DNA of 64,000 nt from assembly GCA_964458305.1 (NCBI GenBank), contig CAYWIH010000002.1, forward strand, positions 32,599 to 96,598, given 5' to 3'. A program made the position numbers and the translations under genes. Below the pieces are notes generated by a model. That model did not search any database. It had not been told where the DNA came from and was given only the letters and a program-made list of their open reading frames with translations. Below are positions 9,414-60,034 of the stretch, piece after piece (position 1 is the first letter of the stretch; each line of letters begins with the position of its first letter). The DNA comes from an uncultured bacterium (GTDB taxonomy: Bacteria > Cyanobacteriota > Cyanobacteriia > Cyanobacteriales > JASJDA01).

Positions 9414-9425
9414 TGAGGATTAAAA

Positions 9426-10808: not shown

Positions 10809-10844
10809 GTAAGTCACTATTTTTAGAAAGAGGGTTAATATTAA

Positions 10845-11822: not shown

Positions 11823-11883
11823 TCTAGTAATAATTAAACTTAATGTCATTTAGTGAGGAAAGATCCCCAATCGTAGAGCTAAA

Positions 11884-13389: not shown

Positions 13390-13528
13390 GAATAGCTAAT
13401 CTAAGCATTCTTAAGATGGAACAAAATTACTAGGTTAAAGAGAGATAGATCGATATAAAAGTTATCTATCTAGGATTATTAACCAAATACAGAAATTGAA
13501 TTATAACCTTCACCTCAATCGACTATAA

Positions 13529-35264: not shown

Positions 35265-35276
35265 AATTTTTTATCC

Positions 35277-35328
35277 CCCCTGACCTCCTACCCACTCTCT
35301 GACCCCTGACCTCCTACCCACTCTCTGA
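35277..35328. repeat. 26-bp direct tandem repeat, 2 full copies plus the start of a third
   Basis: CCCCTGACCTCCTACCCACTCTCTGA occurs at 35277-35302 and 35303-35328, followed by CCCCTG. Lies in the spacer between the two DUF4139 genes. Confidence 0.9.
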
Positions 35329-35338
35329 CCCCTGTACC

Positions 35339-35356
35339 GACGTACCATGGTACGTC
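35339..35356. repeat. 18-bp perfect palindrome GACGTACCATGGTACGTC (member of a dispersed element)
   Basis: Self-complementary around CCATGG. The 20-mer TGTACCGACGTACCATGGTA (35333-35352) recurs identically at 45412-45431. Confidence 0.9.
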
Positions 35357-35370
35357 CTCTAACCTCATTT

Positions 35371-37695
35371 TTATTCTCTTCTATTACCGCCAATTAACTC
35401 TTTATCGATAAAAGTTTTAACAGTATAATTTACTTCTAAAATTGTTTCTTCTTTTGCGGGTAAATCGATTTGCCAGCGATAACCGCCTTTAATTATGGCA
35501 TTTCTTTCTTTTTGATTGTATTCTTCCCATTCTGGAGATAAGCGATCGATCTCGACATCGACTTTAACATTGCGATCGGCTACGGGTATTCTTTCTCTAA
35601 CTTCTATTTTTGCCGATCTATTTAAACGGTTGGCCAGATCTATTTTAATTTGATGGTGTAATTGATTTAAGGCTACTAAACTATCGCTCGATCGGGTTTC
35701 ATTATAGTTAGTATTGCGAGCAACTTTTATTGCTTGTTCTACTCCCAATCCTAATTCCATTTCTCCACCAGTTGGGACAGTTTTAATGTTAGTTCCGAGG
35801 ATATATTCTCCATCGACATAAATATCCGCCGATCCTGCCAATAATGGGGCTTGTAGTGGGTTGCGAAGCTGGGCGATTCTAAATACATTTGTACTTTCGC
35901 GCGGAACTACTACATAACGTAAATTAACATCTGTATTTTGAGATGCGATCGCCACTGAATGAAATTGTCCGTCGCTGAGTAAATCTATTCTTCCTGCTGC
36001 TAAATAAGCATAATCGAAAGATCCTGCTTCTTCGCGAACGTCGATCGATCCGATAGGAAGAGATGGTATGTTATTTGTGGCTTCAAAAGTGGCTTTTTTT
36101 ACTCGATCGATAATATTGAAAGATACGATCGCTTTTTGCCGTTTGAGGTATGTTAAGTATATTTCTTGGCGCGATTCGATGTATAATTTACCTCGTTTGG
36201 ATCTATTATCTGCCGAACTCAATCGCATTAAATTATATGCCAGGCGATCGATCTGAGTTGACATTTTTATTCTCGACTGCGATCTTTTTCGCAATGATGA
36301 AGATCTAGTAGTAATTCCTCTTGCTTTTTCTTCTGGTTCTTCTAAAGTATATCCAGCATTAGCACCAGCTTGTTCTAGCCGAGCTATTACCTCTTCAGCT
36401 TTTTCTTTAGTTAAACCTTGTATGGCTGCTGGTATTGATTCGACGAACTCTTTAGATTCTTTCAGCCCCAAACCAGTAATCGATCTTATTTCTTTGAGGA
36501 TCGCAACTTTGTTCCGTTGTGGAACATTTGTCAGATAAACATCAAATTCTGTTTGTTCTTCTTCTGGTTCGGCAGCAGCACCCATCATCCCCGGCATCAT
36601 CATACCACCAAAAGCACTAGGAGGAGCATCAAGTTCTTCAAGATCGTAGGGAATATCCAAATCTAAAAGAGGTGCTACATTGACAGGAGATATATAAGGC
36701 AGATCGTATCGATCTGAAACGAGATCTTGCTTAGCTATATTTTTATGTCGATCGTAATCTTCAAAAAGAACTTCAGATCCTCTAGGAGGTTGTCGCCATC
36801 CAGTTTTTACTGGTAAACTAGGCTGAGCCTTGCCAATACGTAAAGAAGGTAATTCTGGTAATTCGCACCAACTTTCTGGCAAAGCGGTGGATAATTCTAA
36901 ACGCACCCCCAACCAATCTTCGCCACTATAATGAGCGATCGAGGCACGCATTGCAATAGTCGCTGTATTATTTTTACTATCCAAACGACAAACATAAGTA
37001 GGAGTCCAACGCGCTCCAGGCACGAAGTATTCTATTATTAATCTAGCTCGAGTAAAATTAGCTATCTCCCCGCTATAATTTAAACTTACTATTACTGTTT
37101 TGCGTAATTCGTTCGGTTTGGCTGCTTTTGCTGTCGAGGCTAATTTTTGTTTTTGTTCTAGATCTTGAAGATGTTCGATCGCCTGACGTAATTTTGCTTT
37201 ATTTTCGCGTCGCTCTTTTAATTTAATCTTAATTTCTTCTTCTTTAAAATTAGCTATTGCTAATCTTGCAGCGATCGGCGATGGTGGTGGGGCTTTTTTC
37301 GGATCTGGGTGGGGGCGATCGGGTATCTTTAAATCTGCGATCGCTTCTATTTCTGCATCTATTAAAGCGATGATGTTCTGTAATTTCTGTTCTGCTGCTT
37401 TGGCTTGTCTTATTGCTTCTTCTGGGGGAATAGAGTCGATTTTTTGCGGTGGTGGTACTGCCAAACCGATGCGAATATCCGTGGCGATCGCACTATTTTC
37501 TGACGATTCTGTTTCTACTCTAGCCCTAACGGAACTATCTTCTAAAGCTAAAGGCAGCCCAGCAATTTCTACTCTACTGGGTATCTCCCCATCGACTAAT
37601 TCTAAGTTAGCGATGCGGGTTATTGTCGCACCACTTGCATACACTTTTGCCTTATCGATGTTGGAATTTAATCGAGCTAAACTCATAAAATACAT
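35371..37695 (-). CDS. DUF4140/DUF4139 (MuiA-like) family protein with an inserted ribosomal bL12 (L7/L12) hinge + C-terminal domain
   Basis: 774 aa (start ATG 37695 or 37686). The N-terminus [17 protein letters not shown], a coiled coil, and C-terminal [17 protein letters not shown]...VRERIPVAD are collinear with the 526-aa paralog. Residues about 355-451 are bL12-like. Confidence 0.7.
36343..36561 (-). other. bL12 (L7/L12) C-terminal-domain-like segment inside the 774-aa ORF
   Basis: [74 protein letters not shown] compared with E. coli bL12 [71 protein letters not shown]. It is preceded by a Gly/Ala/Met/Pro hinge. Confidence 0.8.
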
Positions 37696-38429: not shown

Positions 38430-38816
38430 TTAGTTGAGATTATGTTTTAGATCGAGGTGTTTAAAAACGGTACCGATTAAATCTTGAGGAGCATATGGTT
38501 TTGTGATGTAGTCCGTACCTCCTTGTCGTAAAGCCCAAAAGCGATCGAATTCTTCAGCTCTAGAACTGCAAAACAAGATAGGTATTTCTTGCCATTCTTG
38601 GGAACGGGAACGAATTTGACGACAAAACTCCAAACCATTAATACCAGGTAAAATAATATCTAAGAGAATCATATCGGGGAAGGAATTAACTTTTAACCAG
38701 TTCCAAGCGTTTTCTACACTATTTACTTCTCCGACTTTAAATCCAGCTTGTCTTAATAATGCTGACATTAGCCTTCTTTCTGATTTAGTGTCTTCCACTA
38801 CAAGTACAGTCTTCAT
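38430..38816 (-). CDS. Single-domain CheY-like response regulator
   Basis: MKTVLVVEDTKSE...PDMILLDIILPGINGLEF...PILFCSS...ITKPY. All receiver signature residues are present. Confidence 0.9.
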   Translation of the reverse strand: MKTVLVVEDTKSERRLMSALLRQAGFKVGEVNSVENAWNWLKVNSFPDMILLDIILPGINGLEFCRQIRSRSQEWQEIPILFCSSRAEEFDRFWALRQGGTDYITKPYAPQDLIGTVFKHLDLKHNLN

Positions 38817-47585: not shown

Positions 47586-48209
47586 TTAATTAAATGCTTC
47601 TCTTGCCATACAAGCGCGGCCGCTAACTGCTATTTCTGGATCTTTTTGCTGCAAATGTTGAAATTTTGCCAAAATAGGCTTGACAAATTCACTATTTTCT
47701 GAAACTCTAGCTAAAAGTGCTTGCAAACCAACTACAGCAGCATAACGAACTACCCATTCCCCATCTTCGCAAACTAACAATAAAACATCGAGAACTTGTT
47801 TTTGAGCCGGTAAAATATCCTCTTGGGGTAATTTAGACCAATTGATAAATCCCAAGCCTCTAGCAGCCGCACGACGCACGCTCAAAGAAAAATCGCTGAC
47901 AGCAGCTTTTAACAATAAATCGAGGGCGCGAGGATCGCCGATCCCAGCAAAAGCACGAATAGTCCAAGCTCTCGCACCATAATTATAATCGTCAAGATTT
48001 TCTAATAAATAAGGAACTGCTGGCTCGCCGATATCGATCAATCCATCGACAGCAGCAACGGCAGCTCCGGGATTGTTATAACCCAATATTTCAATTAAAG
48101 TAGGGATTGCTGCGGGATCTTTTCGATCGGCTAATGCTTCGGTTGCTTCTAACAAACCATCAGCAGAATCAGCTTTTTCGACAGCTTCTATATATTTTTG
48201 TACGGACAT
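47586..48209 (-). CDS. cpcF: Phycocyanobilin lyase beta subunit (E/F-type, HEAT repeats)
   Basis: IPTLIEILGYNNPGAAVAAVDGLIDIGEPAVPYLL and following HEAT repeats. Sits downstream of cpcE. Confidence 0.85.
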   Translation of the reverse strand: MSVQKYIEAVEKADSADGLLEATEALADRKDPAAIPTLIEILGYNNPGAAVAAVDGLIDIGEPAVPYLLENLDDYNYGARAWTIRAFAGIGDPRALDLLLKAAVSDFSLSVRRAAARGLGFINWSKLPQEDILPAQKQVLDVLLLVCEDGEWVVRYAAVVGLQALLARVSENSEFVKPILAKFQHLQQKDPEIAVSGRACMAREAFN

Positions 48210-48245
48210 TTTTTGAAAGTAACGAGTAGATAATTTCTGATTTCT

Positions 48246-48356
48246 ATACCGACTTACCGGGAGAGAATAGACAGCTTTAGTAACGATCGATCGGTAGGAA
48301 TCTATAAGTTATCAATTCAAGGAAAGCTGTCTACTCCTTCCACCCAAGGTACGTCG
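48246..48356. repeat. Long imperfect inverted repeat filling the cpcE-cpcF spacer
   Basis: Left arm 48246-48278 (ATACCGACTTACCGGGAGAGAATAGACAGCTTT) and right arm 48323-48356 (AAAGCTGTCTACTCCTTCCACCCAAGGTACGTCG). The 11-bp core is perfect. The outer ends resemble the GGTACGTC dispersed motif. Confidence 0.6.
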
Positions 48357-48360
48357 CTTA

Positions 48361-49185
48361 TTACAATAGTCCGTCCATTAACTCCATTAATTTAATACTT
48401 TCTTCAGATAAAGCAGTAATTTCCGACTGCTTTGTTAATTGAAATTCTAATAATCCTCTCAAAGCGATTAATTTCATACTATTTTCAGCTAAAGTATTAA
48501 AAATTGGCTCTCCAGCAGGATAATAACCGATCGCCCCTAAATCTATTAAAGCCGATCGTCGCAGTTGTAAATTATCTCCAGCCAAAGCCTTAACCAGAAT
48601 ATCCCCGTAAACAGAATTACCAGTTAATTGATACATCGCTCGAGCTGCTGCATACTGTACTTTAGGGACTCGATGTTTTAAAAAAGGCTCGATCTCCTCT
48701 TGAGCTTCTGTTGCTCCTAAAGTTCCTAAAGCTTCGATAATTGCCTCGTAGGGCTGCACTAGATGGGGTTTTCCAGGGACTTGCTTAGCCTCCGCTACAC
48801 CACCTGCAAGTAACTTTAAAAGAGGCTGAATACAACTGGCATCGCCAACAGTTTCTAAAGACTGTGCTGCAGCTTCTCTGACGTAAACATCGGGAAAATC
48901 CAAACAGCGAATTAATGGCTCGATCGCTCTTTTATCTCCCAGTTTACCTAAAGCTCTAGCTGCATTTCTTCTTAAAGGATAACCACCGTCGGGTGCTCGA
49001 TCTTCAGAGTCTTCTAAAGCCAATAATAAAGCATCGATCGCCGCAGGTGTTGCCACTCTAAATCTTCCCAACCACCAAGCAGCATAATAACGCTGACCTA
49101 AATCTTCTTTTTGCAATAATTTAGCGATCGCTGTTTCTTCGGTTAACGATTCTGGTTCGCCAAACTCGGGATATTCTTGTTGCAT
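48361..49185 (-). CDS. cpcE: Phycocyanobilin lyase alpha subunit (E/F-type, HEAT repeats)
   Basis: LGQRYYAAWWLGRFRV signature and multiple HEAT repeats. 274 aa. Directly downstream of cpcA. Confidence 0.85.
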   Translation of the reverse strand: MQQEYPEFGEPESLTEETAIAKLLQKEDLGQRYYAAWWLGRFRVATPAAIDALLLALEDSEDRAPDGGYPLRRNAARALGKLGDKRAIEPLIRCLDFPDVYVREAAAQSLETVGDASCIQPLLKLLAGGVAEAKQVPGKPHLVQPYEAIIEALGTLGATEAQEEIEPFLKHRVPKVQYAAARAMYQLTGNSVYGDILVKALAGDNLQLRRSALIDLGAIGYYPAGEPIFNTLAENSMKLIALRGLLEFQLTKQSEITALSEESIKLMELMDGLL

Positions 49186-49207
49186 TTGCTCGCAATAAAC
49201 GTAACAA

Positions 49208-49269
49208 TGCCCGGAACAGTAAACAAATACTAGCGCGCTTTAGCCGGCATTCGCATACTTTTCCGGGCA
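49208..49269 (-). promoter_or_regulatory. Stem-loop downstream of cpcA (possible attenuator separating cpcBA from cpcEF)
   Basis: 9-bp inverted repeat TGCCCGGAA (49208-49216) / TTCCGGGCA (49261-49269). On the minus-strand transcript it is followed by a U-rich TTGTTACGTTTATT. Confidence 0.4.
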
Positions 49270-49353
49270 AGATCTTCAACAATCTCGATCGATTGCTTAA
49301 ATTTCTCGATCGACTAGAGACTCAATTTTTGCCCCCAGAAGTCGCTCTTCAAA

Positions 49354-49842
49354 TTAGCTGAGAGCGTTAATTGCGTAGTCGAAATAGTTGTTAGCTTCGG
49401 TAGCAGATTGACCTTGCAAACCGTGGTTAGCTTTGATGTATTTTAAAGCTTCGATGTACCAGCTAGGAGATAATTCGTAGCTGCGGTTGATTTCATCTAA
49501 GCCAGCAACTAAATACTCGTCCATGGGGCCAGTTCCACCAGCTACTAGACAGTAGGTTACCATACGCAAGTAGTAACCGATGTCGCGAGAGCATTTTGCT
49601 TTACCTTCTTCGGTAGAAGCGTAGTTGGGCCCGGGAGTAGAAGTAGTGTAAGGGAATTTGCTGTACACTGCTTGAGCTGCTCCGTTAACTAAGCTTTGAG
49701 AGTTAGCAGTTAATGTTTTTGCTGCTTCTAAAGCGGCACTAGCTCTTTCAAAACGACCGAAAGCGATTTGAATTTCGGTGTTGCTTAAGAAACGACCTTG
49801 AGAATCTGCTGCGGATACTGCTTCGGTTAGAGGTGTTTTCAT
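49354..49842 (-). CDS. cpcA: Phycocyanin alpha subunit
   Basis: 162 aa. [25 protein letters not shown]...[29 protein letters not shown]...[18 protein letters not shown] is near-collinear with C-phycocyanin alpha. Confidence 0.95.
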
Positions 49843-49900
49843 TTTTTTCGATTTCTCCCTGATATTTTGCTAAAAAACGATGCTTAATTGAATGGTTTGC

Positions 49901-50419
49901 TTATGCTACTGCCGCTGCTGCGCGATCGAAGTAGCCGGAAATTTCAGAAGCAAGCGCGCTGCAATCGCCAGGAGTGATACCGTTAGGATCGTTAACGATC
50001 GCTAATGCTGCTTCTTTCATTTTTTGTACGCCAACTGCAACAGAACTTCCTGGAGTTCCTAATGCTAGGTAAGTTTCGCGTAAACCGTTCAAGCAACGAT
50101 CTTCTAGTACGGAAGCATCGCCAGAGAAAATCGAGTAAGTTACGTAACGCAAAATAATTTCCATATCCCGCAAGCAAGCTGCGTTGCGACGGCTAGTGTA
50201 AGCGTTACCACCAGGAGCGATTAACTGGGGCTGCTCTTTGAATAATTCGCGAGCTGCGTTTGTTACGATCGCCGAAGCGTTGCTAGTAATGCGGTTTACC
50301 GCATCCATGCGCTTGTTGCCCTCTTTAACCATGTTGTTAAGAGCGTCGATTTGAGAGCTGGATAGAAATTCCCCTCTTGCATCTGCTTGAGAAACTACTC
50401 TAGTGAATGCGTCAAACAT
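49901..50419 (-). CDS. cpcB: Phycocyanin beta subunit
   Basis: 172 aa. [20 protein letters not shown]...[16 protein letters not shown]...[14 protein letters not shown], with Cys-82 and Cys-153 contexts. Confidence 0.95.
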
Positions 50420-50749
50420 TTAGATCTCCTGTCAATAAGTTATGGTCTTATTTTTTAGTTGCGATCGCAACCATTTTTTTGGCAAAACAGGTGGATGTTT
50501 CCACTACTGTTTTAGTTTCCTTTATTTTTCTCAAAAGTTAAAGCCATTATCCATGATATGACTCAAACTATTTTTTTAAGAAATATCAGAAAACTTTATG
50601 TTTTTATCATATACCGCTTTATCGCGTTTATTTGCCTTTTTGGGGTTACTCTAGTTTCTCCCCAGGTAAATTTTATACAATCCTACGATATTTTTGCTCC
50701 CCAGATCTTGTAAATTTTTTAAGCTTTTTCTTAATAAAACTTAATATTA

Positions 50750-51517
50750 TTACAAGCTGATGATGCCCCAAGCTGCTAGAGCGACGGCGATCGCGATCCC
50801 AGCAAGTGCCGCTAATCCCCCGTAAAATATTGTTTGGGCGATCAGGGCGTATGCTTTGGAGTAAGGGGGACGTTGCCAACTCCAGCGATAGCCGGATGTC
50901 ATCCAAGGATATTGTTTGAATTCGTGGGAAAAATAGCCGATTTCTTCCAATTTAGCCCGATAATCTGCACCGTAACGAGGCATTCTCGCAAAAGGCAAAT
51001 CTCCTTGGGATCTTTGCGGTAATATCCGCCTTCTTTGATAGGGAAGGGTATCCTCGCCAAAGTTCTTCAAATATTCCTCGCTAGTCAGCAAGGCATCTAC
51101 GAACCCTTCTAAGCCTTTAGTCGCCAAAACGATCGACCAAGCCATTTTTTCGCGATCGTTGTAAATATCCCTTCCTAAAACGCGCCGAACGCACATTTGC
51201 ACGAAACGATAATTACTATTTGGCTCGTAATTGCGTCGCCGAAAAGTTTCTGAAAGCAGCAAGCCCCGCACGAATTCCCTGACGGTAATTTTTCGGTTTC
51301 TCAGCTGAGATTCTAGAAAAACTTGACGGTTGCTAGTTAAAAGTTGCTGTTCGTTAAAGATTTGGCGGTAAGCGGCTCTAATTAGCTCGTTGATTTCTAC
51401 TTGATTTGGTAGATGAGCTGTTGTATAATTTCTAGGCTGCTCTTCTCCTGGCACTTCAAAACCTGCTACGCGCTGATTTTGACTGTTAGGGGGATAGCTC
51501 AATAAAGGAATAGTCAT
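50750..51517 (-). CDS. cpcL: CpcG-family rod-core linker with C-terminal hydrophobic anchor (CpcL/CpcG2 type)
   Basis: PBS-linker domain (LIRAAYRQIFNEQQL...VREFVRGLLLSETFRR...RFVQMCVRRVLGR), plus C-terminal AYALIAQTIFYGGLAALAGIAIAVALAAWGIISL. Confidence 0.8.
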   Translation of the reverse strand: MTIPLLSYPPNSQNQRVAGFEVPGEEQPRNYTTAHLPNQVEINELIRAAYRQIFNEQQLLTSNRQVFLESQLRNRKITVREFVRGLLLSETFRRRNYEPNSNYRFVQMCVRRVLGRDIYNDREKMAWSIVLATKGLEGFVDALLTSEEYLKNFGEDTLPYQRRRILPQRSQGDLPFARMPRYGADYRAKLEEIGYFSHEFKQYPWMTSGYRWSWQRPPYSKAYALIAQTIFYGGLAALAGIAIAVALAAWGIISL

Positions 51518-51700
51518 ACCTTTGCTTGTCCTCCGCGAACGTTAAATTTAAAATAAGCCTTTAATTATTCCCATCTACGATGGTCGAGAAGGATTGGCTG
51601 AGTAATTTTACTCGTCTTTTTCCTTCTCTTTCGAGACTAAAGGAAGATCGGGCTATATTGCTATGTCTACGTCAAAAACAGCAATAATTTGTAATATTTA

Positions 51701-52456
51701 CTACAAACTCGGTAATAATTGAGGAATTTTTCTCGGCAAATCGAATAAAAAACCGTGAATGTATTCTTCTGTCCATTCTTCCCCGTACAAGCGAGCAAAC
51801 ATCCCCCGAGCCGGGTCTTTTTCGGCGCGATATTTGACATAACGCAATTGAGCTTGTAGGATATGCTTTTGCTTGTCAATGTCGTCGATCGCCACTGCTG
51901 CGCTAACAAAATCTAAATAAGCGGTGAGATAGTCGCAAAAAGCCGAATATACTCTAGTTTTAACCGTTTCTGTTTTTTCGGGCCGCGTCCACAAAAAAGC
52001 TTCCGAAAAGAAGGGTTTTGCTTCTTCTGGAAAATCTCCACCCCAACTTAAATGTTCTTGGTGGGTGCGAAATATTGGTAAAATCGGTTCGGTATATTTA
52101 TCTCGATAAGCTGGGTCGTCCCGAAAAAGAGGCTGCAGATCGATCGCGATTAGATGACCTCCTGGTAGGGTAACTAAATCCGCACCAAAAAAGGGTAAAT
52201 CGTAATTTGGCTGGGGAAAAATTACAAAATTAAGTACTTGTAAAGCTCCTCCTCCTCTGACGTGTGCCGCACGAATTTGCCGCAATTTTGGGGTAGAATA
52301 AGCAACCGAAGTAGTAATGACTGTTTCAAGTCTTTTTCCTTTTCCGGTTGTTGTTTCTTGGCGATCGAATCCTGGGGGAATTGGATAAGGAGATAAATTT
52401 AATTTATCTGATAGAAGATCGATCGCAAAATCTAAAAAAGGTTGATACAAACTCAC
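51701..52456 (-). CDS. pebB: Phycoerythrobilin:ferredoxin oxidoreductase
   Basis: [21 protein letters not shown] and [32 protein letters not shown] match PebB. GTG start at 52456. Confidence 0.85.
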
Positions 52457-52485
52457 GTCAATTAAATTTTAAATTGATTGATTTT

Positions 52486-53217
52486 TTATTTATTTGCTGT
52501 CACAGCTAAAGAGCGAGCATCTTCAAAGAGAAATTCGTGCAAAAAGCGATCGGCCCATTCGCTACCGAAATAACTGCTAAATAAACCGTGAGCGGGATCT
52601 CGCTCCGCGCTATAACAATCGTAATCTTTTTGAGCGGTAACGATGCGATCTATCTCTTGAGGTTCGGTTAAAAATTCTGCATCTTCGAGGATCTGCCAAT
52701 ACAATTGAATGTATTCTTTGTAAGCTGGAAACAGTCTTTTTACTATAGTTTCTTTGTCGGTTTTGGCAAAGAGAATGTATTTAGAAAAGTAGCGATTGGC
52801 ATCGTAAAATTTCATGGGAATATTTTGAGCTAAATCTCGATATCGATCGCGAATTTTTGCCATCGGTTCGACATATTTATCTTGATAAGCTCGGTCGTTA
52901 AATAACGGTAAAAAATCTAAAACTACTAAATTTTTTACTTTGCCAAAGGTTAAAAAATCTATGCCTAAAAGAGGGATATCGTAATTATGTGCGGGATAGA
53001 TAACGCTATTAAAGATTTGAGCCGATTCTCCAGCATCGATATAGGTATAACGAATTTTCCGCAGTTGGGGAGATTTATAGCACCAACTTTGAATTGTGGC
53101 TTGGTTTTTACCCCGATCGCTTTGGTTGAATTCCAATCCGGGCGGAATCGCTCTTTTTTCTAAATTAAAATGCTTAAATAGCTCTTCTTCTAAATATTCC
53201 CTAAAAATTTGATACAT
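52486..53217 (-). CDS. pebA: 15,16-dihydrobiliverdin:ferredoxin oxidoreductase
   Basis: IQSWCYKSPQLRKIRYTYIDAG...LLGIDFLTFG...YSAERDPAHGLFSSYFGSEWADRFLHEFLF matches PebA. Lies upstream of pebB as in known pebAB operons. Confidence 0.85.
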   Translation of the reverse strand: MYQIFREYLEEELFKHFNLEKRAIPPGLEFNQSDRGKNQATIQSWCYKSPQLRKIRYTYIDAGESAQIFNSVIYPAHNYDIPLLGIDFLTFGKVKNLVVLDFLPLFNDRAYQDKYVEPMAKIRDRYRDLAQNIPMKFYDANRYFSKYILFAKTDKETIVKRLFPAYKEYIQLYWQILEDAEFLTEPQEIDRIVTAQKDYDCYSAERDPAHGLFSSYFGSEWADRFLHEFLFEDARSLAVTANK

Positions 53218-53320
53218 AGATTAAGACTCGGATACTATAGCTCTGTTGCGAGGATATCGGATCTCCCAAAACCTCGTCTCATATGCGATCGACAAAGCAA
53301 CATTACTTAATATCGTTCTC

Positions 53321-53908
53321 TTAAATACCGGCCCGAGCAAAATTATTTTGAATCAGATCTTCGATGCGATCGCCCGACAAACAACGACGCTCCGAACAAT
53401 AAGTCATTAAATTCACGCCATTCATCATTTTGACCGTACTGACGCGAACTCGGAAATCATCGGTAACGAACCAACAACGCTCCTGACCTTGATTGTTATC
53501 GTAATCGGTATCGATAGTCAAGATACCATCTCGGCCGAACCAATAGCGACTGATTACGGGAATACTTTCAACGTAACCGCGATCGCGAATTAATTTTCCG
53601 CTCAATTTGCTGTCATCGTCGGGAATATCGATTAAAATTGCGGCATAATCTGGATTGGGTTCGCGATCGTCTAAATTTCCCTGCCAACTGAAACTTGCTC
53701 CTCCGGTTGCTCGATCGGGATCTATGCCTTGAGAGGAGCAAACTTCTGCTATTTTAGAATCGTCTGGCTCGATAACTGTGACGATTAAGTTAGATTCTCC
53801 CGATTCGTCGGCAGCATTGTCAAAATGATGTACTGTTCTTTGGGTGAACCAAGTTCCTTCGCTTTTGCGAAAAAAGTCCATCATCGTGGTTGGCGGTTTC
53901 AATCTCAT
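53321..53908 (-). CDS. S/U-type phycobilin lyase (CpcS/CpeS family)
   Basis: MMDFFRKSEGTWFTQRTVHHF is the family N-terminal signature, on a lipocalin-like length. The true start is probably at Met-9/10 (53884/53881). Confidence 0.8.
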   Translation of the reverse strand: MRLKPPTTMMDFFRKSEGTWFTQRTVHHFDNAADESGESNLIVTVIEPDDSKIAEVCSSQGIDPDRATGGASFSWQGNLDDREPNPDYAAILIDIPDDDSKLSGKLIRDRGYVESIPVISRYWFGRDGILTIDTDYDNNQGQERCWFVTDDFRVRVSTVKMMNGVNLMTYCSERRCLSGDRIEDLIQNNFARAGI

Positions 53909-55309: not shown

Positions 55310-58216
55310 ATGACTCAGCAAAAAGAACGCGCCAAATCATCCCTCAAAGAGGGAGACAAATTAGACTTAGACGGTCTACAACTGAGATTCTCAGAAAAAT
55401 CAAAATCCCAATTAAAAACCAAAGCCACTGTCATAGCAAGCATATTAGGTATAATACCGGCTTTGATAATTGGAGGATCTACTTACTATTTTGCCGGCCG
55501 AGCTATCGATGAGGAGATTGTCAGAGTAGAACGAGAAGAAAATCAAGTTTTAGTTGCCAATAAATTAGAACAGCAAAGACAACTACTGACAATATTGTCC
55601 TTCACAACGGTAATTGCAGCATTATTCGGAGGCGGGATCGTCGGTTTTTGGACTAATCGTGCCATTAATTCGGCAATGAAAATTGCTAAAAACTCTAGCC
55701 AGTTGTCACCAGAGGCAGCAAAAACAGAGAGAACCGAATTATTAACAGAAGCGATCGGCCACATTCGTGCTTGTATCAAAGAGCAAGATATTCTCGATGC
55801 AACGGTAGAAGAGCTACAAAGAATTCTCAAATGCGATCGAGCAGTCGTTTATTCCCTCGAAGCAGAATCTCGAGCTACAGTAGTGGCTGAAGCCGTTCAA
55901 CCGCGCTGGCCCAGAGCTTTGGGACGGAAGATCGAAGATCCTTGTTTTGATGCTAAATACGCTAAAGAATATGAAAACGGTCGAGTTAGGGCGATCGAAA
56001 ATATTGATAATAGCGGCATGACTCGGTGTTACATCGACCAACTCAAAAAATTTAAAGTTAAAGCTAATTTAGTTACTCCTATTGTCAGCGAAGGAAAATT
56101 GTTGGGTTTGTTAGTAGCTCATCAATGCGACGGCCCCCGATATTGGCAGCAGTGGGAAGTCGATCTGACGGCTCAGCTGGCATCCCAAGTCGGTTTTGCT
56201 CTCGATAACGCTCGAGTTTTAGAACGAGCCACTCAAATCCAAAAACAGTTAGAAAACGAAACAGAATGGACGCAGTATTTTACCGATGCGATCGGCTATA
56301 TTCGCGCTTCCTTGCAAGAAACAGAACTGCTCAAAGCCGTTGTTAAAGAAGTTCGCGGAGTTCTCAGTTGCGATCGAGTGGTAATTTATGGTTTAGAAGC
56401 AGAAAATCGCGGCGTAGTAATTGCAGAATCGGTTACTCCGCGCTGGCCGAGAGCTTTAGGGCGCAAGATCGACGATCCTTGTTTTGATGCAAAATACGCC
56501 AAAGAATATGAAAACGGTCGAGTTAGGGCGATCGATAATATTTATGAAGCGGGGATGACTCCTTGTTACATCGAACAGTTAGCAAGATTGGAAGTTAAAG
56601 CTAATTTAGTCGCTCCCATTCTCAATGAAGGAAAATTATTGGGTTTGCTAGTAGCTCACCAATGCGACGAACCTCGATTTTGGCAACAATTAGAAATTAG
56701 ATGGTTCGCTCAAATTGCCATTCAAGTCGGTTTTGCGATCGATAACGCTCGAGTTTTAGCAAAATCTAACCAGATCCAAAAACAACTAGAAACTGAAATC
56801 GAGCGAAATGAGTTTTTTACAAATGCGATCGGACATATTCGCAGTTGTATTTCAGAACAAGGAATTATCGAGATTTCCGTTGAAGAAGTCCAAAAAATTC
56901 TTAATTGCGATCGAGTGGTAATTTATGGACTAGAAGCAGAAAATCGCGGTGTGGTAATTGCCGAAGCAGTCCAACCACGCTGGCCCAGAGCTTTGGGAAG
57001 AACGATTAAAGATCCTTGTTTCGATGCAAAATACGAAACAGAATATCTCAACGGCAGAGTTCGGGCGATCGATAATATTTATGAAGCAGGGATGACTTCT
57101 TGTTATGTCGAACAGTTAGAAAGATTGGAAGTTAAAGCTAATTTAGTCGCCCCAATCATCAAAGAAGGAAAATTATTGGGTTTGCTAGTAGCCCATCAAT
57201 GCGAAGCACCTAGAGTTTGGCAAGAATTAGAAATTAATTGGTTCGCTCAGCTAGCAGTGCAAATCGGCTTTGCAATCGATAATGCCCGTATTTCAGAGCG
57301 TTATGCTGCAATGGAGAAAAAACTAGCGCAAATGTCTCGAGACGATGTATTTATGGCTCGAGCCGAGCTACAAGATGGACATTTATTGCAAGCTGAGTTA
57401 CCGCAACTCTCAGGCCGCAGCGACATCGATATTGAGAATTTTTTAGCCAGGATCGAAACTCAAGAACAAACGATCGCTTCTTTTGCCGATCGCATTCAAG
57501 AAATAGTTAATTATAGCTCCGAGCTGGCCGAGGGAGTAGAATTACTAGATCGCAATGCTCGCGAAGATCTTAACGATTTAAACATCTTGAGAGAGCCGAT
57601 CGAACGATCTTTAGATAATGGAGGTGCGATCGCAACTACAATCGAGGGAACTACACAAGCGATCGATAAAGCGAAATCTCTTTTTAACCAACTCAAGGAG
57701 ATAGAGAGTTTAATTAGCGATTTTGGCGAACGCATTAACGAACAAACTATGAATTTAATTATTGAAGTTGGTAAGGGCGAACAACAGCTCGATCGCGATT
57801 CGATCGCCGGGATGGCCGATCTAATTTATGCTTCGACTCAGCAATTAACTTCTACAGTTGGAGAAATTAAACCAGTAGTTAGCGAAATCGATCGCCATAG
57901 CGCAGAAATTACTGCAGGAGTCGATAGTTGGCAACAACAAGATTCCCAGCAAAGGCAATTATGGCAACAGATCGATTCTCAATTCCAAAAACTGCTTGCA
58001 GAATCCGACGAGCGAATTAATTGCCTCGATCGAGTTACTAAAACTGCTGCAATTCAATTGCAAACTTCAACCACAGCTAACCAATCTCTTTTAGAATTAA
58101 GTTCTCTTGCCAAACAGACTTCAGAACAATCTAGCCTCTTAGCTAACTATCTTAACGAGCTAAAATCATTCGCCCTGAGAATCCATAATTCTCCAGTCGA
58201 ACCACCTAGAAATTAA
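55310..58216 (+). CDS. PixJ-like photoreceptor: two TM helices + three DXCF-type cyanobacteriochrome GAF domains + divergent MCP signalling domain
   Basis: Each GAF has DPCF and a second Cys exactly 28 residues later (DPCFDAKYAKEYENGRVRAI.NI...GMT.CY), then LLGLLVAHQC. C-terminal coiled-coil region with ERINEQTMNLIIEVGKGEQ in place of the MCP hairpin-tip consensus. Confidence 0.8.
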   Translation: MTQQKERAKSSLKEGDKLDLDGLQLRFSEKSKSQLKTKATVIASILGIIPALIIGGSTYYFAGRAIDEEIVRVEREENQVLVANKLEQQRQLLTILSFTTVIAALFGGGIVGFWTNRAINSAMKIAKNSSQLSPEAAKTERTELLTEAIGHIRACIKEQDILDATVEELQRILKCDRAVVYSLEAESRATVVAEAVQPRWPRALGRKIEDPCFDAKYAKEYENGRVRAIENIDNSGMTRCYIDQLKKFKVKANLVTPIVSEGKLLGLLVAHQCDGPRYWQQWEVDLTAQLASQVGFALDNARVLERATQIQKQLENETEWTQYFTDAIGYIRASLQETELLKAVVKEVRGVLSCDRVVIYGLEAENRGVVIAESVTPRWPRALGRKIDDPCFDAKYAKEYENGRVRAIDNIYEAGMTPCYIEQLARLEVKANLVAPILNEGKLLGLLVAHQCDEPRFWQQLEIRWFAQIAIQVGFAIDNARVLAKSNQIQKQLETEIERNEFFTNAIGHIRSCISEQGIIEISVEEVQKILNCDRVVIYGLEAENRGVVIAEAVQPRWPRALGRTIKDPCFDAKYETEYLNGRVRAIDNIYEAGMTSCYVEQLERLEVKANLVAPIIKEGKLLGLLVAHQCEAPRVWQELEINWFAQLAVQIGFAIDNARISERYAAMEKKLAQMSRDDVFMARAELQDGHLLQAELPQLSGRSDIDIENFLARIETQEQTIASFADRIQEIVNYSSELAEGVELLDRNAREDLNDLNILREPIERSLDNGGAIATTIEGTTQAIDKAKSLFNQLKEIESLISDFGERINEQTMNLIIEVGKGEQQLDRDSIAGMADLIYASTQQLTSTVGEIKPVVSEIDRHSAEITAGVDSWQQQDSQQRQLWQQIDSQFQKLLAESDERINCLDRVTKTAAIQLQTSTTANQSLLELSSLAKQTSEQSSLLANYLNELKSFALRIHNSPVEPPRN
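55745..57355 (+). repeat. Three tandem 537-bp (179-codon) coding repeats = the three GAF modules
   Basis: Landmarks recur at exactly +537: GCGATCGG at 55751/56288/56825, and CC(G/A)CGCTGGCC at 55901/56438/56975. Long stretches are nearly identical. Confidence 0.9.
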
Positions 58217-58222
58217 TTTACA

Positions 58223-60034
58223 ATGTTATCCATTATGGCCCTCTCTTGGGAAGTCGATCGAGAAATTTACCAAATTTTTATTCAAGAAACCCTTCAATTA
58301 TTGGAGCAGATTGAAGAGATTTTGGTGGGTTTCGATCGCGATTGGAATCAAACTAAAATTGAAGAACTTGTCCGTGCGGCCCATACAATTAAAGGGGGTG
58401 CGGCCCAAATTGAATTTAGCGAAACTCAAATCATAGCAGCTCGTCTCGAAGTTTTTTTTCGCCGTCTCAAGCACGAATCTGTTAAAGTAGATCTCGATTT
58501 GTTAAACCTTTTAATCGAAGGCTACGAGTTATTAAGGTTATCGGTAATAACTCGCATTGAAAATAACGGCCATCTCGATAATAGTGAAGATTTAATATTT
58601 CGATCGGAATCTATTTTTACTCAGCTAGAGGCGATTCTCGAAGACAACTCAGCCGCAGAAGATCGCAATATTCCTAAAATTACCGATGTCGAACCAGATC
58701 TTAAAAATTTAATTTGCAATACAGAAATAGCTGAAGCTCTCGAAGATCTCGATCGGGTTTTAATCGAAGCAAGCGAAGCAGATATCTTAAGCCAACTTCA
58801 AGATCGGATCGCAATTTTCCTCGATTTAGGGACAGTTTTAGGCATATCTGAATTTGTTACTATCGCCCAAACTACTCGAGCTACTTTAGAAGCAAGTCCT
58901 CAAGCGGCTCGAAATATCGGTCAGTTAGCTAAAGTTGGTTTTCAAGCTGCCTTACAAGCATTATTAAACGATAATAACCAAAATAGTAATCCCCCTTCCT
59001 TATCTAATGGTTCGATCGAGGATTGGGAAAATTTGGAGATAGATTTATTTTCACCAGATTTAGATCCGATTGTTTTCCAAAATTCGATCGAGCGAGCAAA
59101 ATCAGTTTTTTTAGAAGATTCTCAAGCTCTCAAACCGCCAAAATTACCAGCTGTAGCGGTTAAGAAAGAATTACATTATAACATTAGCAAATCTTTAGTT
59201 TGGCAGTTTCAGAATAATGTTTTTATCTTACCCTACAGAAAAATCGAAAAGAATTTAAGTGCTAAATTTGTTAAATTTATTTACTCGGATGGTGAGAAAT
59301 ATTTACGCTGGCAATCTCAATTGCTTCAAGTTTACCAACTATCTGAATTACTGAGTTATCAATACCCGCAAACTGCGCTCGAACCAAGCAAACAAAAAAA
59401 AGATTCTTCGATCTTAATAATCAATTTTCGCTCCCTGATTATTGCCTTAGAAATACGGATCGATCGCATATTTACTGCTTCAGAATTAACAATTAAACCT
59501 TTCAGCCTCGCTCTAACTCCACCTAATTATATTTATGGCTGCATCATCTTAGCAAATTCATCTTTAGCTTGCGCGATCGACGTTCCTTTATTATTAACTT
59601 TGACCTTCGATAGTCCTCAAAACACAAGTAATTCTCTCGATCGAGTTAATTCAAATAATAATAAACAACCGACTATTTTAGTAGTCGATGATTCTTCTGC
59701 TTGGAGACAAACGTTATTATTAGCCTTACAAAAAAAAGGTTATAAAGTCCTACAATCAGCAGATGGAAAAGAAGCGATCGAACAATTACAAAATAACTCC
59801 CAAATTCAATTAATTATCAGCGATTTAGAAATGCCTTATATCAATGGCTTCGAATTGCTTGCTTACTGTCGCGAAGATCTATTATTAAAGGAATTGCCAT
59901 TTATTTTATTAACTACTCGCAACAGCGATCGATATCGAAAGCAGGCAAAAGAATTAGGAGTTACGGAATATTTTACTAAACCTTATAACGAGTCAGAATT
60001 ATTAGATGCTTTGCAATCTTATTTACAGTCTTAG
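58223..60034 (+). CDS. CheA-like scaffold lacking the kinase core: Hpt + CheW-like + receiver domains
   Basis: Hpt motif LVRAAHTIKGGAAQ. CheW-like region (LVWQFQNNVFILPY...ILIINFRSLIIALEIRIDRI...). C-terminal receiver ILVVDDSSAWRQ...LIISDLEMPYINGFEL...ILLTT...FTKPY. No N/G1/G2 ATPase boxes seen. Confidence 0.75.
   Translation: MLSIMALSWEVDREIYQIFIQETLQLLEQIEEILVGFDRDWNQTKIEELVRAAHTIKGGAAQIEFSETQIIAARLEVFFRRLKHESVKVDLDLLNLLIEGYELLRLSVITRIENNGHLDNSEDLIFRSESIFTQLEAILEDNSAAEDRNIPKITDVEPDLKNLICNTEIAEALEDLDRVLIEASEADILSQLQDRIAIFLDLGTVLGISEFVTIAQTTRATLEASPQAARNIGQLAKVGFQAALQALLNDNNQNSNPPSLSNGSIEDWENLEIDLFSPDLDPIVFQNSIERAKSVFLEDSQALKPPKLPAVAVKKELHYNISKSLVWQFQNNVFILPYRKIEKNLSAKFVKFIYSDGEKYLRWQSQLLQVYQLSELLSYQYPQTALEPSKQKKDSSILIINFRSLIIALEIRIDRIFTASELTIKPFSLALTPPNYIYGCIILANSSLACAIDVPLLLTLTFDSPQNTSNSLDRVNSNNNKQPTILVVDDSSAWRQTLLLALQKKGYKVLQSADGKEAIEQLQNNSQIQLIISDLEMPYINGFELLAYCREDLLLKELPFILLTTRNSDRYRKQAKELGVTEYFTKPYNESELLDALQSYLQS

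What the first reader, a model, noticed from the sequence alone, without database searches (positions are those of the whole stretch)
58223..60034. Kinase-less CheA-like protein (Hpt - unknown helical region - CheW-like - receiver) directly downstream of the photoreceptor
The protein starts 7 nt after the receptor stop codon. It has a canonical Hpt histidine (AAHTIKGGAAQ), a CheW-like domain and an intact receiver (DD...D...T...K). I find no dimerisation or HATPase_c motifs (no N box, DxGxG or GxGxG) in the about 200-aa middle region. No CheA kinase, CheW or CheY gene is adjacent. Combined with the degenerate MCP tip next door, this suggests a two-component photosensory module that either borrows a kinase in trans (with Hpt as a phosphorelay node) or signals without phosphorylation.
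Basis: partly seen in the sequence, partly recalled or inferred. Interest (0 to 1): 0.6.

Follow-up and report, generated by a model that had tools for sequence, protein, structure and literature searches.

The report
Kinase-less CheA relative beside photoreceptor
This cyanobacterial gene encodes a chemotaxis-kinase relative that has lost its whole ATP-using kinase core. It is always paired with its own blue/green-type light receptor, so the pair probably steers phosphate flow in a light-guided motility pathway rather than generating the signal itself.

Summary
ORF 58223-60034 (603 aa) has a CheA-type Hpt/P1 domain (His54), a CheW-like P5 domain and an intact receiver. Pfam, a custom PixL P3-P4 profile and six-frame searches find no dimerisation or ATPase domain.

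It is not a gene fragment. Its N-terminal 250 aa and C-terminal 290 aa align collinearly with full-length PixL-type CheA-CheY kinases. About 450 aa (linker, P3, P4) are replaced by a 57-aa disordered linker. Most of the "unknown helical region" is ordinary PixL sequence: the end of P1 plus a His-less four-helix bundle.

Kinase-less relatives form one clade (NJ bootstrap 487/500). They occur in Prochloraceae-type, Hydrococcus and Nostocales genomes. Wherever the neighbourhood is visible, a multi-GAF MCP-like gene with a diverged tip is adjacent, and no PatA, CheY or CheW gene is. The receiver's active site is kept almost everywhere. The Hpt histidine is kept in the window's subclade but was lost repeatedly elsewhere.

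Best reading: a receptor-docked phospho-acceptor (like CheV, or a phosphate sink) fed by a complete CheA encoded elsewhere. That kinase was not found with these tools. I rate it a new variant of a known kind, of moderate to high interest.

The parts
55310..58216 (+). Partner photoreceptor gene (968 aa): two N-terminal hydrophobic segments, three DXCF-type cyanobacteriochrome GAF domains and an MCP-like coiled coil. There is no HAMP between the last GAF and the coiled coil.
   Evidence: ORF. Pfam GAF x3, 194.5 bits. Best solved relative is the TePixJ GAF, 3vv4, E 1.7e-36. DPCF motifs at aa 210, 389 and 568; HQC at aa 271, 450 and 629; hydrophobic 19-mers near aa 35-60 and 90-115. The HAMP block present in canonical PixJ is absent.
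55784..56203 (+). GAF1 (aa 159-298)
   Evidence: Pfam best stretch; PDB matches to cyanobacteriochrome GAF domains.
56327..56740 (+). GAF2 (aa 340-477)
   Evidence: Aligned to TePixJ 3vv4 residues 48-185, with the DPCF and AHQC motifs preserved.
56864..57280 (+). GAF3 (aa 519-657)
   Evidence: PDB matches 5zoh and 3w2z; DPCF and HQC motifs.
57713..57847 (+). Diverged MCP hairpin tip (aa 802-846, ISDFGERINEQTMNLIIEVGKGEQQLDRDSIAGMADLIYASTQQL)
   Evidence: 23% identical to the canonical PixJ tip consensus. Canonical tips are 89% identical to each other; tips of kinase-less partners are 52% identical to each other. Pfam MCPsignal 11.5 bits against a cut-off of 34.6.
58217..58222 (+). 6-nt spacer between the receptor stop codon and the ATG of the kinase-less gene (operon-like coupling)
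   Evidence: Sequence. The same gene order holds in orthologous loci, with gaps of 45-317 nt.
58223..60034 (+). Kinase-less PixL-derived CheA-like gene (603 aa): P1, His-less bundle, linker, P5, receiver
58259..58663 (+). P1/Hpt five-helix domain (aa 13-147)
   Evidence: Pfam Hpt. AF2 helices 13-147. phmmer hits to CheA P1 structures: 2ld6 at 2e-8, plus 1tqg, 8c5v_C and 1i5n.
58382..58384 (+). His54 codon (CAT), equivalent to E. coli CheA His48. K57 and E76 align with K51 and E70.
   Evidence: Alignment to CheA P1 sequences. Invariant in alignment A1. Replaced in many other kinase-less lineages.
58694..58981 (+). Second, His-less four-helix bundle (aa 158-253). It is shared with full-length PixL-type kinases.
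   Evidence: AF2 pLDDT 80-92 in the full model and 87.6 when modelled alone. Aligns to the same region of 12 full-length PixL-type proteins. Foldseek gives only weak hits (E about 1, TM about 0.6), many of them Hpt proteins. No sequence similarity to P1 or to PDB sequences.
58982..59155 (+). Disordered, poorly conserved linker (aa 254-311). It sits where PixL has its long linker plus P3 and P4.
   Evidence: AF2 pLDDT below 50 for aa 252-311. Variable in length and sequence across the family. PixL residues 253-704 have no counterpart.
59171..59608 (+). P5 / CheW-like domain (aa 317-462)
   Evidence: 42% identical to PixL P5 plus receiver. Pfam CheW 23.8 bits. AF2 predicts a beta-rich fold with pLDDT about 70-88. 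No PDB sequence hit on its own.
59672..60028 (+). Receiver domain (aa 484-602) with D489, D490, D534, T564 and K586
   Evidence: Pfam 80.5 bits. Foldseek TM 0.92-0.98 to CheY and RR468. Active-site columns conserved across the family.
59822..59824 (+). Asp534 codon (GAT), the predicted phospho-acceptor
   Evidence: Sequence; invariant column.

Best explanation
The gene encodes a derivative of a PixL-type (type IV pilus class) CheA-CheY hybrid kinase. One ancient in-frame deletion removed the long linker, the P3 dimerisation domain and the P4 ATP-binding domain. What is left is P1 (Hpt, His54), a His-less four-helix bundle, a short disordered linker, P5 (CheW-like) and a receiver.

It is co-transcribed with a dedicated membrane photoreceptor. 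The photoreceptor has three DXCF cyanobacteriochrome GAF domains fused to an MCP-like coiled coil whose hairpin tip has moved away from the canonical sequence.

Shown here: the protein has no kinase core, and the pair forms a conserved, selected two-gene module.

Inferred:
- P5 docks the protein on its own receptor.
- The receiver, and in this subclade probably P1 as well, accepts phosphoryl groups from a complete CheA-type kinase encoded elsewhere in the genome.
- Blue/green-type light sensed by the receptor therefore controls how much phosphate this module draws from, or relays within, a pilus-motility (phototaxis) pathway.

Functionally this is a CheV-like adaptor or a light-gated phosphate sink, not a signal generator.
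For: **Anatomy**
- Pfam finds Hpt, CheW and Response_reg only.
- Residues 5-259 align collinearly with PixL 1-252. Residues 317-598 align with PixL 705-1010 at 42% identity.
- The P3-P4 profile scores at most 5.5 bits on all 24 kinase-less proteins tested, and >=496 bits on its best three (the top-scoring full-length relatives).
- The AF2 domain layout agrees.

**Not a relic**
- All 24 kinase-less sequences form one clade within PixL-type proteins (NJ bootstrap 487/500).
- 24 of the top 150 representatives at 50% identity are kinase-less and collinear with the query.
- dN/dS is 0.42 against a 95%-identical sibling and 0.32 against a 65%-identical relative. P1 is 0.14 and P5 is 0.23.
- One MAG carries three paralogous copies.

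**Dedicated partner**
- In the 13 distinct orthologous loci where the neighbourhood is visible, a multi-GAF MCP-like gene is adjacent. It lies upstream on the same strand, except in L010 where it is divergent.
- The other flanking genes are not conserved between the distant loci. No PatA, CheY or CheW gene lies in those flanks.
- Of 64 canonical-type loci, 62 carry CheY, 35 CheW and 26 PatA.
- Partner-receptor tips are 16-40% identical to the canonical consensus. They are still more conserved than their own flanks (0.52 against about 0.42), which suggests a shifted interface rather than decay.

**Phospho-acceptor role**
- The receiver's DD/D/S-T/K residues are kept in nearly all members.
- H54, K57 and E76 align with CheA H48, K51 and E70. 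They are invariant in the window's subclade.

**Precedents**
- The isolated PixL receiver drains phosphate from PixL lacking its receiver in vitro, and has been proposed to be a phosphate sink (PMC11181946).
- R. sphaeroides CheA3 has P1 and P5 and does not autophosphorylate. It works together with CheA4 as one unit (PMC10782961).
Against: - No kinase-competent CheA was found for this genome or any other genome carrying the family. The window has none. The rest of the contig could not be fetched.
- The phospho-histidine was replaced at least eight times in sister lineages, and the Hpt was deleted in Fischerella and Pelatocladus. P1 phosphorylation is therefore not essential to the family and may be vestigial here as well.
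- The diverged receptor tip and the absence of a cheW gene argue against the module sitting in the same array as a canonical CheA. That would make transfer in trans less efficient.
- The P5 assignment by Pfam is at threshold (23.8 against 23.5 bits). P5 has no direct PDB sequence match.
- Everything about phosphate flow is inference. There are no experimental data on any family member.
Confidence: 0.55

Rival explanations
1. Hpt-centred phosphorelay node. A foreign kinase, either a CheA core or a hybrid histidine kinase acting through its receiver, phosphorylates His54. P1 then passes the phosphate to its own receiver or to separate response regulators such as a PatA-type protein. The receptor gates this relay.
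For: H54, K57, G58 and E76 are invariant across the window's subclade, about 17 sequences down to roughly 40% identity. P1 has the lowest dN/dS of all the domains, 0.14. P1 matches CheA P1 structures with the catalytic Glu aligned. An orphan PatA-type regulator and a stand-alone CheY-like gene lie in the same window. Hpt-less CheA kinase-core proteins exist in cyanobacteria.
Against: His54 was replaced by Q, N, E, S, G, D or R in many other kinase-less lineages, and the Hpt was deleted outright in three. This cannot be the family's common mechanism. No donor kinase was identified. The PatA-type gene is 57 kb away, and in the sibling MAG it is not part of a che operon.
Confidence: 0.2
2. One half of a dedicated split CheA. 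A specific partner protein carries P3-P4(-P5) without P1, in the manner of R. sphaeroides CheA4, and is encoded elsewhere. Together with this protein it reconstitutes a private, complete kinase on the diverged receptor.
For: The CheA3/CheA4 precedent (PMC10782961). HATPase-less 'split' CheA architectures have been catalogued (bioRxiv 10.1101/2022.05.07.491035). Hpt-less CheA core proteins occur in cyanobacteria, for example P0283 from Euhalothece and P0367 from Microcoleus. P1 is intact here.
Against: No such gene lies in the operon or in the +/-10 kb flanks of any of the loci examined, whereas cheA3 and cheA4 share an operon. Repeated loss of the His is hard to reconcile with an obligate split kinase.
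Confidence: 0.1
3. A scaffold or decoy that works without phosphorylation. The protein only couples to, or titrates, its receptor or CheW/CheA partners, and the receiver acts as a constitutive interaction surface.
For: There is no kinase. The His is dispensable in many relatives. The receptor tip has diverged.
Against: The receiver's acid pocket, conserved Ser/Thr and Lys are retained in almost all of about 40 diverse members. That is the signature of selection for phosphorylation chemistry.
Confidence: 0.1
4. A decaying remnant or assembly artefact of a full-length pixL gene.
For: The architecture is exactly PixL minus an internal block. Many members come from MAGs.
Against: The reading frame is intact. 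The same architecture appears in isolates with complete genomes (Calothrix NIES-2100 and NIES-22). The clade is monophyletic. dN/dS is below 1. An identical protein is found in independent assemblies. There is no remnant of the kinase core in any frame.
Confidence: 0.02

Closest known systems
PixL / TaxAY1-type CheA-CheY hybrid kinases of cyanobacterial Tfp-class chemotaxis-like systems (Synechocystis Tax1: PixG-PixH-PixI-PixJ-PixL)
   Same: Homologous and collinear over P1, the His-less second bundle, P5 and the receiver (31% and 42% identity). Encoded directly downstream of a cyanobacteriochrome-MCP gene whose GAF domains resemble TePixJ. In PixL the receiver is a proposed phosphate sink (PMC11181946).
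   Different: The linker, P3 and P4 are entirely missing. The operon has no PatA-type, CheY or CheW genes. The partner receptor lacks the HAMP and has a tip only 23% identical to the PixJ consensus.
Rhodobacter (Cereibacter) sphaeroides CheA3, which works with CheA4
   Same: A CheA-lineage protein with a functional-looking P1 and a P5 but no kinase activity. It works together with another CheA as a single unit (PMC10782961).
   Different: CheA3 keeps recognisable but degenerate P2, P3 and P4 remnants and two extra His-less Hpt domains in a 794-aa spacer. It has no receiver, and its partner cheA4 is in the same operon. Here the core is cleanly deleted, a receiver is fused, no partner kinase gene is nearby, and the lineage is cyanobacterial Tfp class.
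CheV (CheW-like domain plus receiver), e.g. in Bacillus subtilis and Helicobacter pylori
   Same: The part kept by every family member is a CheW-like domain followed by a phosphorylatable receiver. The Fischerella and Pelatocladus versions are essentially bundle, P5 and receiver. On established knowledge, CheV couples receptors and is phosphorylated by CheA in trans.
   Different: The CheW-like domain here descends from CheA P5, not from the CheW/CheV lineage. The window protein also carries P1 and a second bundle. It has a private photoreceptor.
HATPase_c-less CheA-lineage architectures 'CheA.XI' and 'CheA.XII' in the CheW-domain survey of Vass, Bourret and Foster
   Same: Catalogued CheA-lineage proteins without an ATP-binding domain, interpreted as 'split' CheAs that work with a partner.
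   Different: I could not read their exact domain make-up or taxonomy, because the figure is not held. CheA.XII is tied to flagellar class F4. Nothing in that text mentions cyanobacteria or a photoreceptor partner.

Membership tests
CheA histidine kinase (four core domains: Hpt, H-kinase_dim, HATPase_c, CheW; PMC10782961) | Hpt (P1) domain with the phospho-accepting histidine | tested here: met
   Pfam Hpt 44.8 bits. phmmer hits CheA P1 structures, with H54, K57 and E76 aligned to H48, K51 and E70.
CheA histidine kinase (four core domains: Hpt, H-kinase_dim, HATPase_c, CheW; PMC10782961) | P3 dimerisation domain (H-kinase_dim) | tested here: not met
   No Pfam hit at E<=1. The custom P3-P4 profile scores -0.5 bits. 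PixL residues 253-704 have no counterpart.
CheA histidine kinase (four core domains: Hpt, H-kinase_dim, HATPase_c, CheW; PMC10782961) | P4 ATP-binding catalytic domain (HATPase_c) | tested here: not met
   No Pfam hit. The custom profile and tblastn are negative in all six frames of the window.
CheA histidine kinase (four core domains: Hpt, H-kinase_dim, HATPase_c, CheW; PMC10782961) | P5 / CheW-like domain | tested here: met
   Pfam CheW 23.8 bits against a cut-off of 23.5. 42% identical to PixL P5 plus receiver. AF2 predicts a beta-rich fold.
PixL-type (Tfp class) CheA-CheY lineage, by descent | Collinear homology of the N- and C-terminal regions, and placement within the PixL-type tree | tested here: met
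   The kinase-less clade nests among PixL-type sequences (487/500 bootstrap for its monophyly).
PixL-type (Tfp class) CheA-CheY lineage, by descent | Operon with PatA-type regulator, CheY, CheW and MCP | tested here: not met
   Only the MCP-like receptor is adjacent. No PatA, CheY or CheW gene lies in the flanks of any kinase-less locus. Compare the canonical loci L054, L090 and L091.
CheV | CheW-like domain followed by a receiver domain | tested here: met
   P5 (aa 317-462) then receiver (aa 484-602). This pair is the only part kept in all family members.
CheV | CheW-like domain of the CheW/CheV lineage, and no Hpt | tested here: not met
   The closest relatives of the domain are CheA P5 domains. 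The window protein has an N-terminal Hpt.
CheV | Receiver phosphorylated by CheA; couples receptors | not testable with these tools
   Needs biochemistry.
R. sphaeroides CheA3-type split CheA | P1 and P5 present, kinase function absent | tested here: met
R. sphaeroides CheA3-type split CheA | Degenerate P3/P4 remnants between P1 and P5 | tested here: not met
   The 57-aa linker is disordered and shows no profile signal.
R. sphaeroides CheA3-type split CheA | Partner kinase-core gene (CheA4-like) in the same operon | tested here: not met
   None in the window or in the flanks of orthologous loci.
Response-regulator receiver domain | Acidic pocket DD, phospho-Asp, conserved Thr/Ser and Lys | tested here: met
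   D489, D490, D534, T564 and K586. Pfam 80.5 bits. Foldseek TM up to 0.98 to CheY-like structures.
Methyl-accepting chemotaxis protein signalling domain (the neighbouring gene) | Pfam MCPsignal above the gathering score, and a conserved hairpin tip | tested here: not met
   11.5 bits against 34.6. The tip is 23% identical to the PixJ consensus. The domain is homologous all the same: orthologues in L002 and L004 carry MCPsignal hits, and the coiled coil aligns throughout.
DXCF cyanobacteriochrome (the neighbouring gene) | GAF domain with the DXCF cysteine and the canonical bilin-binding cysteine | tested here: met
   DPCF and HQC in each of the three GAF domains. Aligned to TePixJ 3vv4 at E 1.7e-36. 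Bilin binding and colour cannot be tested here.

The most novel reading that the evidence does not exclude
The receptor and the kinase-less CheA relative form a self-contained two-protein photosensory system that needs no CheA at all. The receiver would be charged by a non-chemotaxis donor, such as a hybrid histidine kinase, a separate Hpt protein or acetyl phosphate. The light-controlled P5-receptor contact would set its phosphorylation or its output to the pilus machinery. That would be a previously unrecognised, minimal class of chemosensory-derived signalling module, one that evolved by discarding the kinase.
Probability: 0.15. Interest if true: 0.8.

Novelty: new variant of a known kind. 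Interest (0 to 1): 0.6.

Why it matters
CheA is usually defined by its kinase core. A recent survey of 13,673 CheA proteins reported four core domains in every homologue and treated R. sphaeroides CheA3 as a unique exception (PMC10782961).

This finding shows a whole cyanobacterial family that differs in four ways:
- The core was cleanly excised.
- The protein gained a private cyanobacteriochrome receptor with a re-tuned tip.
- Selection then kept P5 and the receiver while the phospho-histidine was lost repeatedly.
- At least 24 clusters at 50% identity belong to it, spanning Prochloraceae-type, Hydrococcus and Nostocales genomes.

This is a natural experiment on what a CheA scaffold does without catalysis. 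It gives a concrete way to test the 'receiver as phosphate sink' idea proposed for PixL. It also suggests how extra colour inputs could be attached to one phototaxis pathway: one MAG carries three such modules.

NCBI currently annotates these proteins only as 'response regulator', so the family is invisible in annotation.

Tried and rejected
- **Is the second helical bundle a cryptic Hpt?** hhalign against the family's own P1 gave 2.4% probability. A profile search of PDB sequences gave nothing. Foldseek on a confident model (pLDDT 87.6) gave no hit at E<=1e-3, only weak matches in which Hpt proteins are common (TM about 0.6). I therefore call it a His-less four-helix bundle that is at best Hpt-like.
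- **Fold search with the full-length model.** It returned only receiver matches.
- **P5 alone against PDB sequences.** No hit.
- **Promoter and terminator scans of 54.8-60.6 kb.** Counts were at the level of shuffled sequence and so uninformative.
- **Reaching the rest of the 97-kb source contig.** The exact protein is indexed only on a 3.7-kb Logan contig. The left-edge regulator is not on record.
- **Is the PatA-type gene at the window's left edge the start of a canonical che operon?** The sibling MAG locus L089 shows it is an orphan, followed by glycosyltransferase and MoaE genes.
- **Finding a complete CheA in the same assemblies.** The contigs of the nearest full-length relatives (P0022, P0027) come from other assemblies. 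A search with a PixL kinase core returned no Prochloraceae proteins.
- **Is the downstream 118-aa ORF part of the module?** It is conserved only in the 95%-identical sibling, so no.
- **Domain make-up of the 'CheA.XI' and 'CheA.XII' architectures.** It is not in the held text or supplements.
- **NCBIfam.** It has no model for the family; only sub-threshold receiver hits appear.
- **One bootstrap script timed out**. I re-ran it with a faster implementation.
Full report
**1. What is at the coordinates**

The ORF at 58223..60034 (+) encodes 603 aa. It starts 6 nt after the stop codon of a 968-aa gene at 55310..58216.

Pfam finds three domains:
- Hpt, aa 14-100, 44.8 bits.
- CheW, aa 359-459, 23.8 bits, just above the 23.5 cut-off.
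- Response_reg, aa 485-597, 80.5 bits.

Nothing resembling H-kinase_dim or HATPase_c appears, even at E<=1.

The quoted motifs are present: AAHTIKGGAAQ with His54, D489/D490, D534, T564 and K586.

The N-terminal domain is specifically a CheA-type P1. phmmer finds T. maritima, E. coli and Salmonella CheA P1 structures (2ld6 at 2e-8). His54, Lys57 and Glu76 align with His48, Lys51 and Glu70.

The upstream protein has three GAF domains (194.5 bits). Its MCPsignal match is sub-threshold, 11.5 against 34.6 bits. The GAF domains are closest to the DXCF cyanobacteriochrome TePixJ (3vv4, E 1.7e-36). Each carries both a DPCF motif and an HQC motif.

**2. It is PixL with the kinase core cut out**

The nearest proteins with more domains are cyanobacterial PixL-type CheA-CheY hybrids of about 1,000-1,050 aa. 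Against two of them:
- Query residues 5-259 align collinearly with PixL residues 1-252 (about 31% identity).
- Query residues 317-598 align with PixL residues 705-1010 (42% identity).
- PixL residues 253-704 have no counterpart.

Most of the 'unknown helical region' is therefore ordinary PixL N-terminal sequence.

AlphaFold2, using a 17-sequence alignment, gives this layout:
- P1 helices, aa 13-147.
- A second four-helix bundle, aa 158-253, pLDDT 80-92.
- A disordered stretch, aa 252-311.
- A beta-rich P5, aa 317-462.
- A receiver, aa 484-602.

The second bundle aligns with the same region of twelve full-length PixL-type proteins. It has no histidine at the Hpt position. It shows no detectable sequence similarity to P1 or to PDB sequences. 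Its structural matches are weak (E about 1, TM about 0.6), with Hpt proteins prominent among them. Synechocystis PixL is described as having two N-terminal Hpt domains (PMC11181946), which fits.

A profile of the P3-P4 core built from 21 full-length relatives gives:
- >=496 bits for its best three (the top-scoring source proteins; only these were printed);
- at most 5.5 bits on all 24 kinase-less proteins;
- at most 10.3 bits anywhere in the six-frame translated window.

tblastn with three PixL proteins finds no core segment in any frame.

**3. It is a family, with a fixed partner**

Database searches give about 20 clusters at 90% identity. Of the top 150 representatives at 50% identity, 24 are kinase-less and collinear with the query.

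A scan of one genome per species finds the family in:
- several Prochloraceae MAGs;
- Hydrococcus;
- Nostoc sp. 106C and T09;
- Aulosira;
- Calothrix sp. NIES-2100 and C. brevissima NIES-22, both nearly complete genomes;
- Aetokthonos;
- Fischerella muscicola;
- Pelatocladus.

The window itself comes from a Prochloraceae-type MAG.

In a neighbour-joining tree of P5 plus the receiver, all 24 kinase-less sequences form one clade among PixL-type proteins (487/500 bootstraps). This indicates a single old deletion.

dN/dS is 0.42 against a 95%-identical sibling, based on few substitutions. It is 0.32 against a 65%-identical relative. P1 is 0.14 and P5 is 0.23.

In the 13 distinct loci where the neighbourhood is visible, a multi-GAF MCP-like gene lies next to the gene. 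It is upstream on the same strand, with gaps of 6-317 nt, and is divergent only in L010. The other flanking genes differ between the distant loci; only the 95%-identical sibling L085 shares them.

Canonical loci carry PatA-type, CheY and CheW genes upstream of the receptor (L054, L090, L091). Of 64 canonical-type loci, 62 have CheY, 35 have CheW and 26 have PatA. No kinase-less locus has any of them in its flanks.

One MAG (MO_167.B51) has three copies (L008, L009, L010).

**4. The receptor has changed too**

In canonical PixJ proteins the hairpin tip ([34 protein letters not shown]...) is 89% identical between species. Partner receptors of the kinase-less family are 16-40% identical to that consensus; the window's is 23%. 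They are 52% identical to each other, which is still more conserved than their own flanks at about 42%.

They also lack the HAMP block that canonical PixJ has between the last GAF and the coiled coil.

This looks like a shifted, private interface rather than decay.

**5. Which parts are indispensable**

Across the wider family, the receiver's DD, D, S/T and K residues are kept almost without exception.

The phospho-histidine is different. It is invariant, together with K57, G58 and E76, in the window's subclade of about 17 sequences. It is also kept in Nostoc 106C/T09, Aetokthonos/P0197 and P0232.

Elsewhere it was replaced:

| Lineage | Residue at position 54 |
|---|---|
| Hydrococcus | G |
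| P0158 | E |
| P0159 | S |
| P0151, P0167, P0177, P0212 | N |
| P0184, P0168, Aulosira, both Calothrix, P0156 | Q |
| P0251 | D |
| P0248 | R |

The whole P1 is deleted in Fischerella, Pelatocladus and P0246, which are 426-aa proteins made of bundle, P5 and receiver. Two members lack the second bundle instead.

The universal core is therefore P5 plus the receiver, which is the architecture of CheV.

**6. Mechanism**

*Shown:*
- The protein cannot autophosphorylate by any CheA-like route, because it has no P3 or P4.
- It and its photoreceptor form a selected two-gene unit.
- The receiver chemistry is under selection.

*Inferred:*
- P5 binds the partner receptor's tip.
- The receiver, and here probably P1, takes phosphoryl groups from a complete CheA encoded elsewhere.
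- Light changes that flux.

*Published support.* The isolated PixL receiver rapidly removes phosphate from PixL lacking its receiver in vitro, and has been proposed to be a phosphate sink (PMC11181946). R. sphaeroides CheA3 has P1 and P5 and does not autophosphorylate, and it works with CheA4 as a single unit (PMC10782961).

*The weak link.* I could not show a complete CheA in any genome that has the module. The window has none. The rest of the contig could not be reached. The PatA-type gene at the window's left edge is an orphan in the sibling MAG. The nearest full-length relatives come from other assemblies. A kinase-core search returned no Prochloraceae proteins, although it did show that P1-less CheA core proteins exist in cyanobacteria.

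*Rivals:*
- An Hpt-centred relay. This is plausible for this subclade but not for the family.
- A dedicated split CheA with a distant partner.
- A scaffold that works without phosphorylation. Receiver conservation disfavours this.
- Gene decay. This is refuted.

**7. Comparison with what is known, and novelty**

By descent the protein belongs to the PixL lineage, but it fails two of the four defining CheA features. It works most like CheV, or like CheA3, without being a member of either.

The 2023 CheA survey found four core domains in all 13,673 CheAs and called CheA3 unique. A CheW-domain survey lists two HATPase-less CheA architectures as 'split' CheAs, but I could not read their composition.

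Five full-text searches found no description of a cyanobacterial kinase-less PixL family or of its photoreceptor pairing. NCBIfam has no model for it, and NCBI names it 'response regulator'.

I rate it a new variant of a known kind. Interest is 0.6.

Noticed in passing
window 2-1216 (-): A PatA-type response regulator (PATAN N-terminal domain plus receiver) runs off the left edge of the window. In a 98%-identical sibling MAG (L089) it is 496 aa and stands alone. It is followed by glycosyltransferase and MoaE genes, not by a che operon. PatA-type regulators are the usual outputs of cyanobacterial Tax systems, so it is a candidate target, but it lies 57 kb away.
   Followed up: partly
window 38430-38816 (-): A stand-alone 128-aa CheY-like single-domain response regulator with no neighbouring che genes.
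   Followed up: no
window 47586-53908 (-): A phycoerythrin gene cluster lies directly upstream of, and divergent from, the pentapeptide-repeat gene and the photoreceptor operon. It holds two phycobilisome-protein genes (49354-50419), two HEAT-repeat lyase-like genes (47586-49185), two ORFs I read by eye as PebA/PebB-like bilin reductases (51701-53217; not scanned against Pfam) and cpeS (53321-53908). The cpeS, pentapeptide, receptor and kinase-less gene order recurs in sibling locus L085 but not in distant orthologous loci, so the link to pigment genes is probably local.
   Followed up: partly
window 33684-37695 (-): Two adjacent paralogous DUF4140/DUF4139 proteins. The larger one (35371-37695, 774 aa) has a ribosomal L7/L12 C-terminal domain (Pfam 69 bits) inserted in the middle of its DUF4139 region.
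   Followed up: no
L018 9956-11236 and L023 9926-11203: The Fischerella muscicola and Pelatocladus orthologues are only 425-426 aa. The His-containing Hpt is deleted as well, leaving bundle, P5 and receiver. They still lie downstream of a three-GAF MCP-like receptor whose tip is closer to canonical (about 0.37-0.40 identity).
   Followed up: yes
L008, L009, L010 (MAG MO_167.B51, JASJDA01): Three paralogous kinase-less copies in one MAG. In L010 the receptor gene is divergently oriented rather than upstream on the same strand. L009 is cut by the contig end.
   Followed up: partly
proteins P0137-P0141: Very long relatives of 1,690-2,273 aa match the query in 4-5 separate stretches with high total scores (405-499 bits). 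They are probably giant multi-Hpt CheA-type proteins and were not examined.
   Followed up: no
proteins P0278, P0283, P0312, P0321, P0367: Cyanobacterial CheA kinase-core proteins without an Hpt domain, some on very long contigs or complete genomes (Euhalothece natronophila, Microcoleus vaginatus). They are the complementary 'half' that a kinase-less P1-bearing protein could in principle work with.
   Followed up: no
whole window: The palindrome CGATCG occurs 285 times against 14.7 expected from shuffles, about 19-fold over-representation. This is the core of the HIP1-type repeat typical of many cyanobacterial genomes. Several copies lie inside the gene studied.
   Followed up: partly
window 6553-14497 (+): A run of same-strand genes for a glycosyltransferase, a MurJ-like flippase and two sulfotransferases, interspersed with ORFs that have no Pfam match. 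This suggests a sulfated polysaccharide locus. ORFs between 14.5 and 33 kb were not scanned.
   Followed up: no
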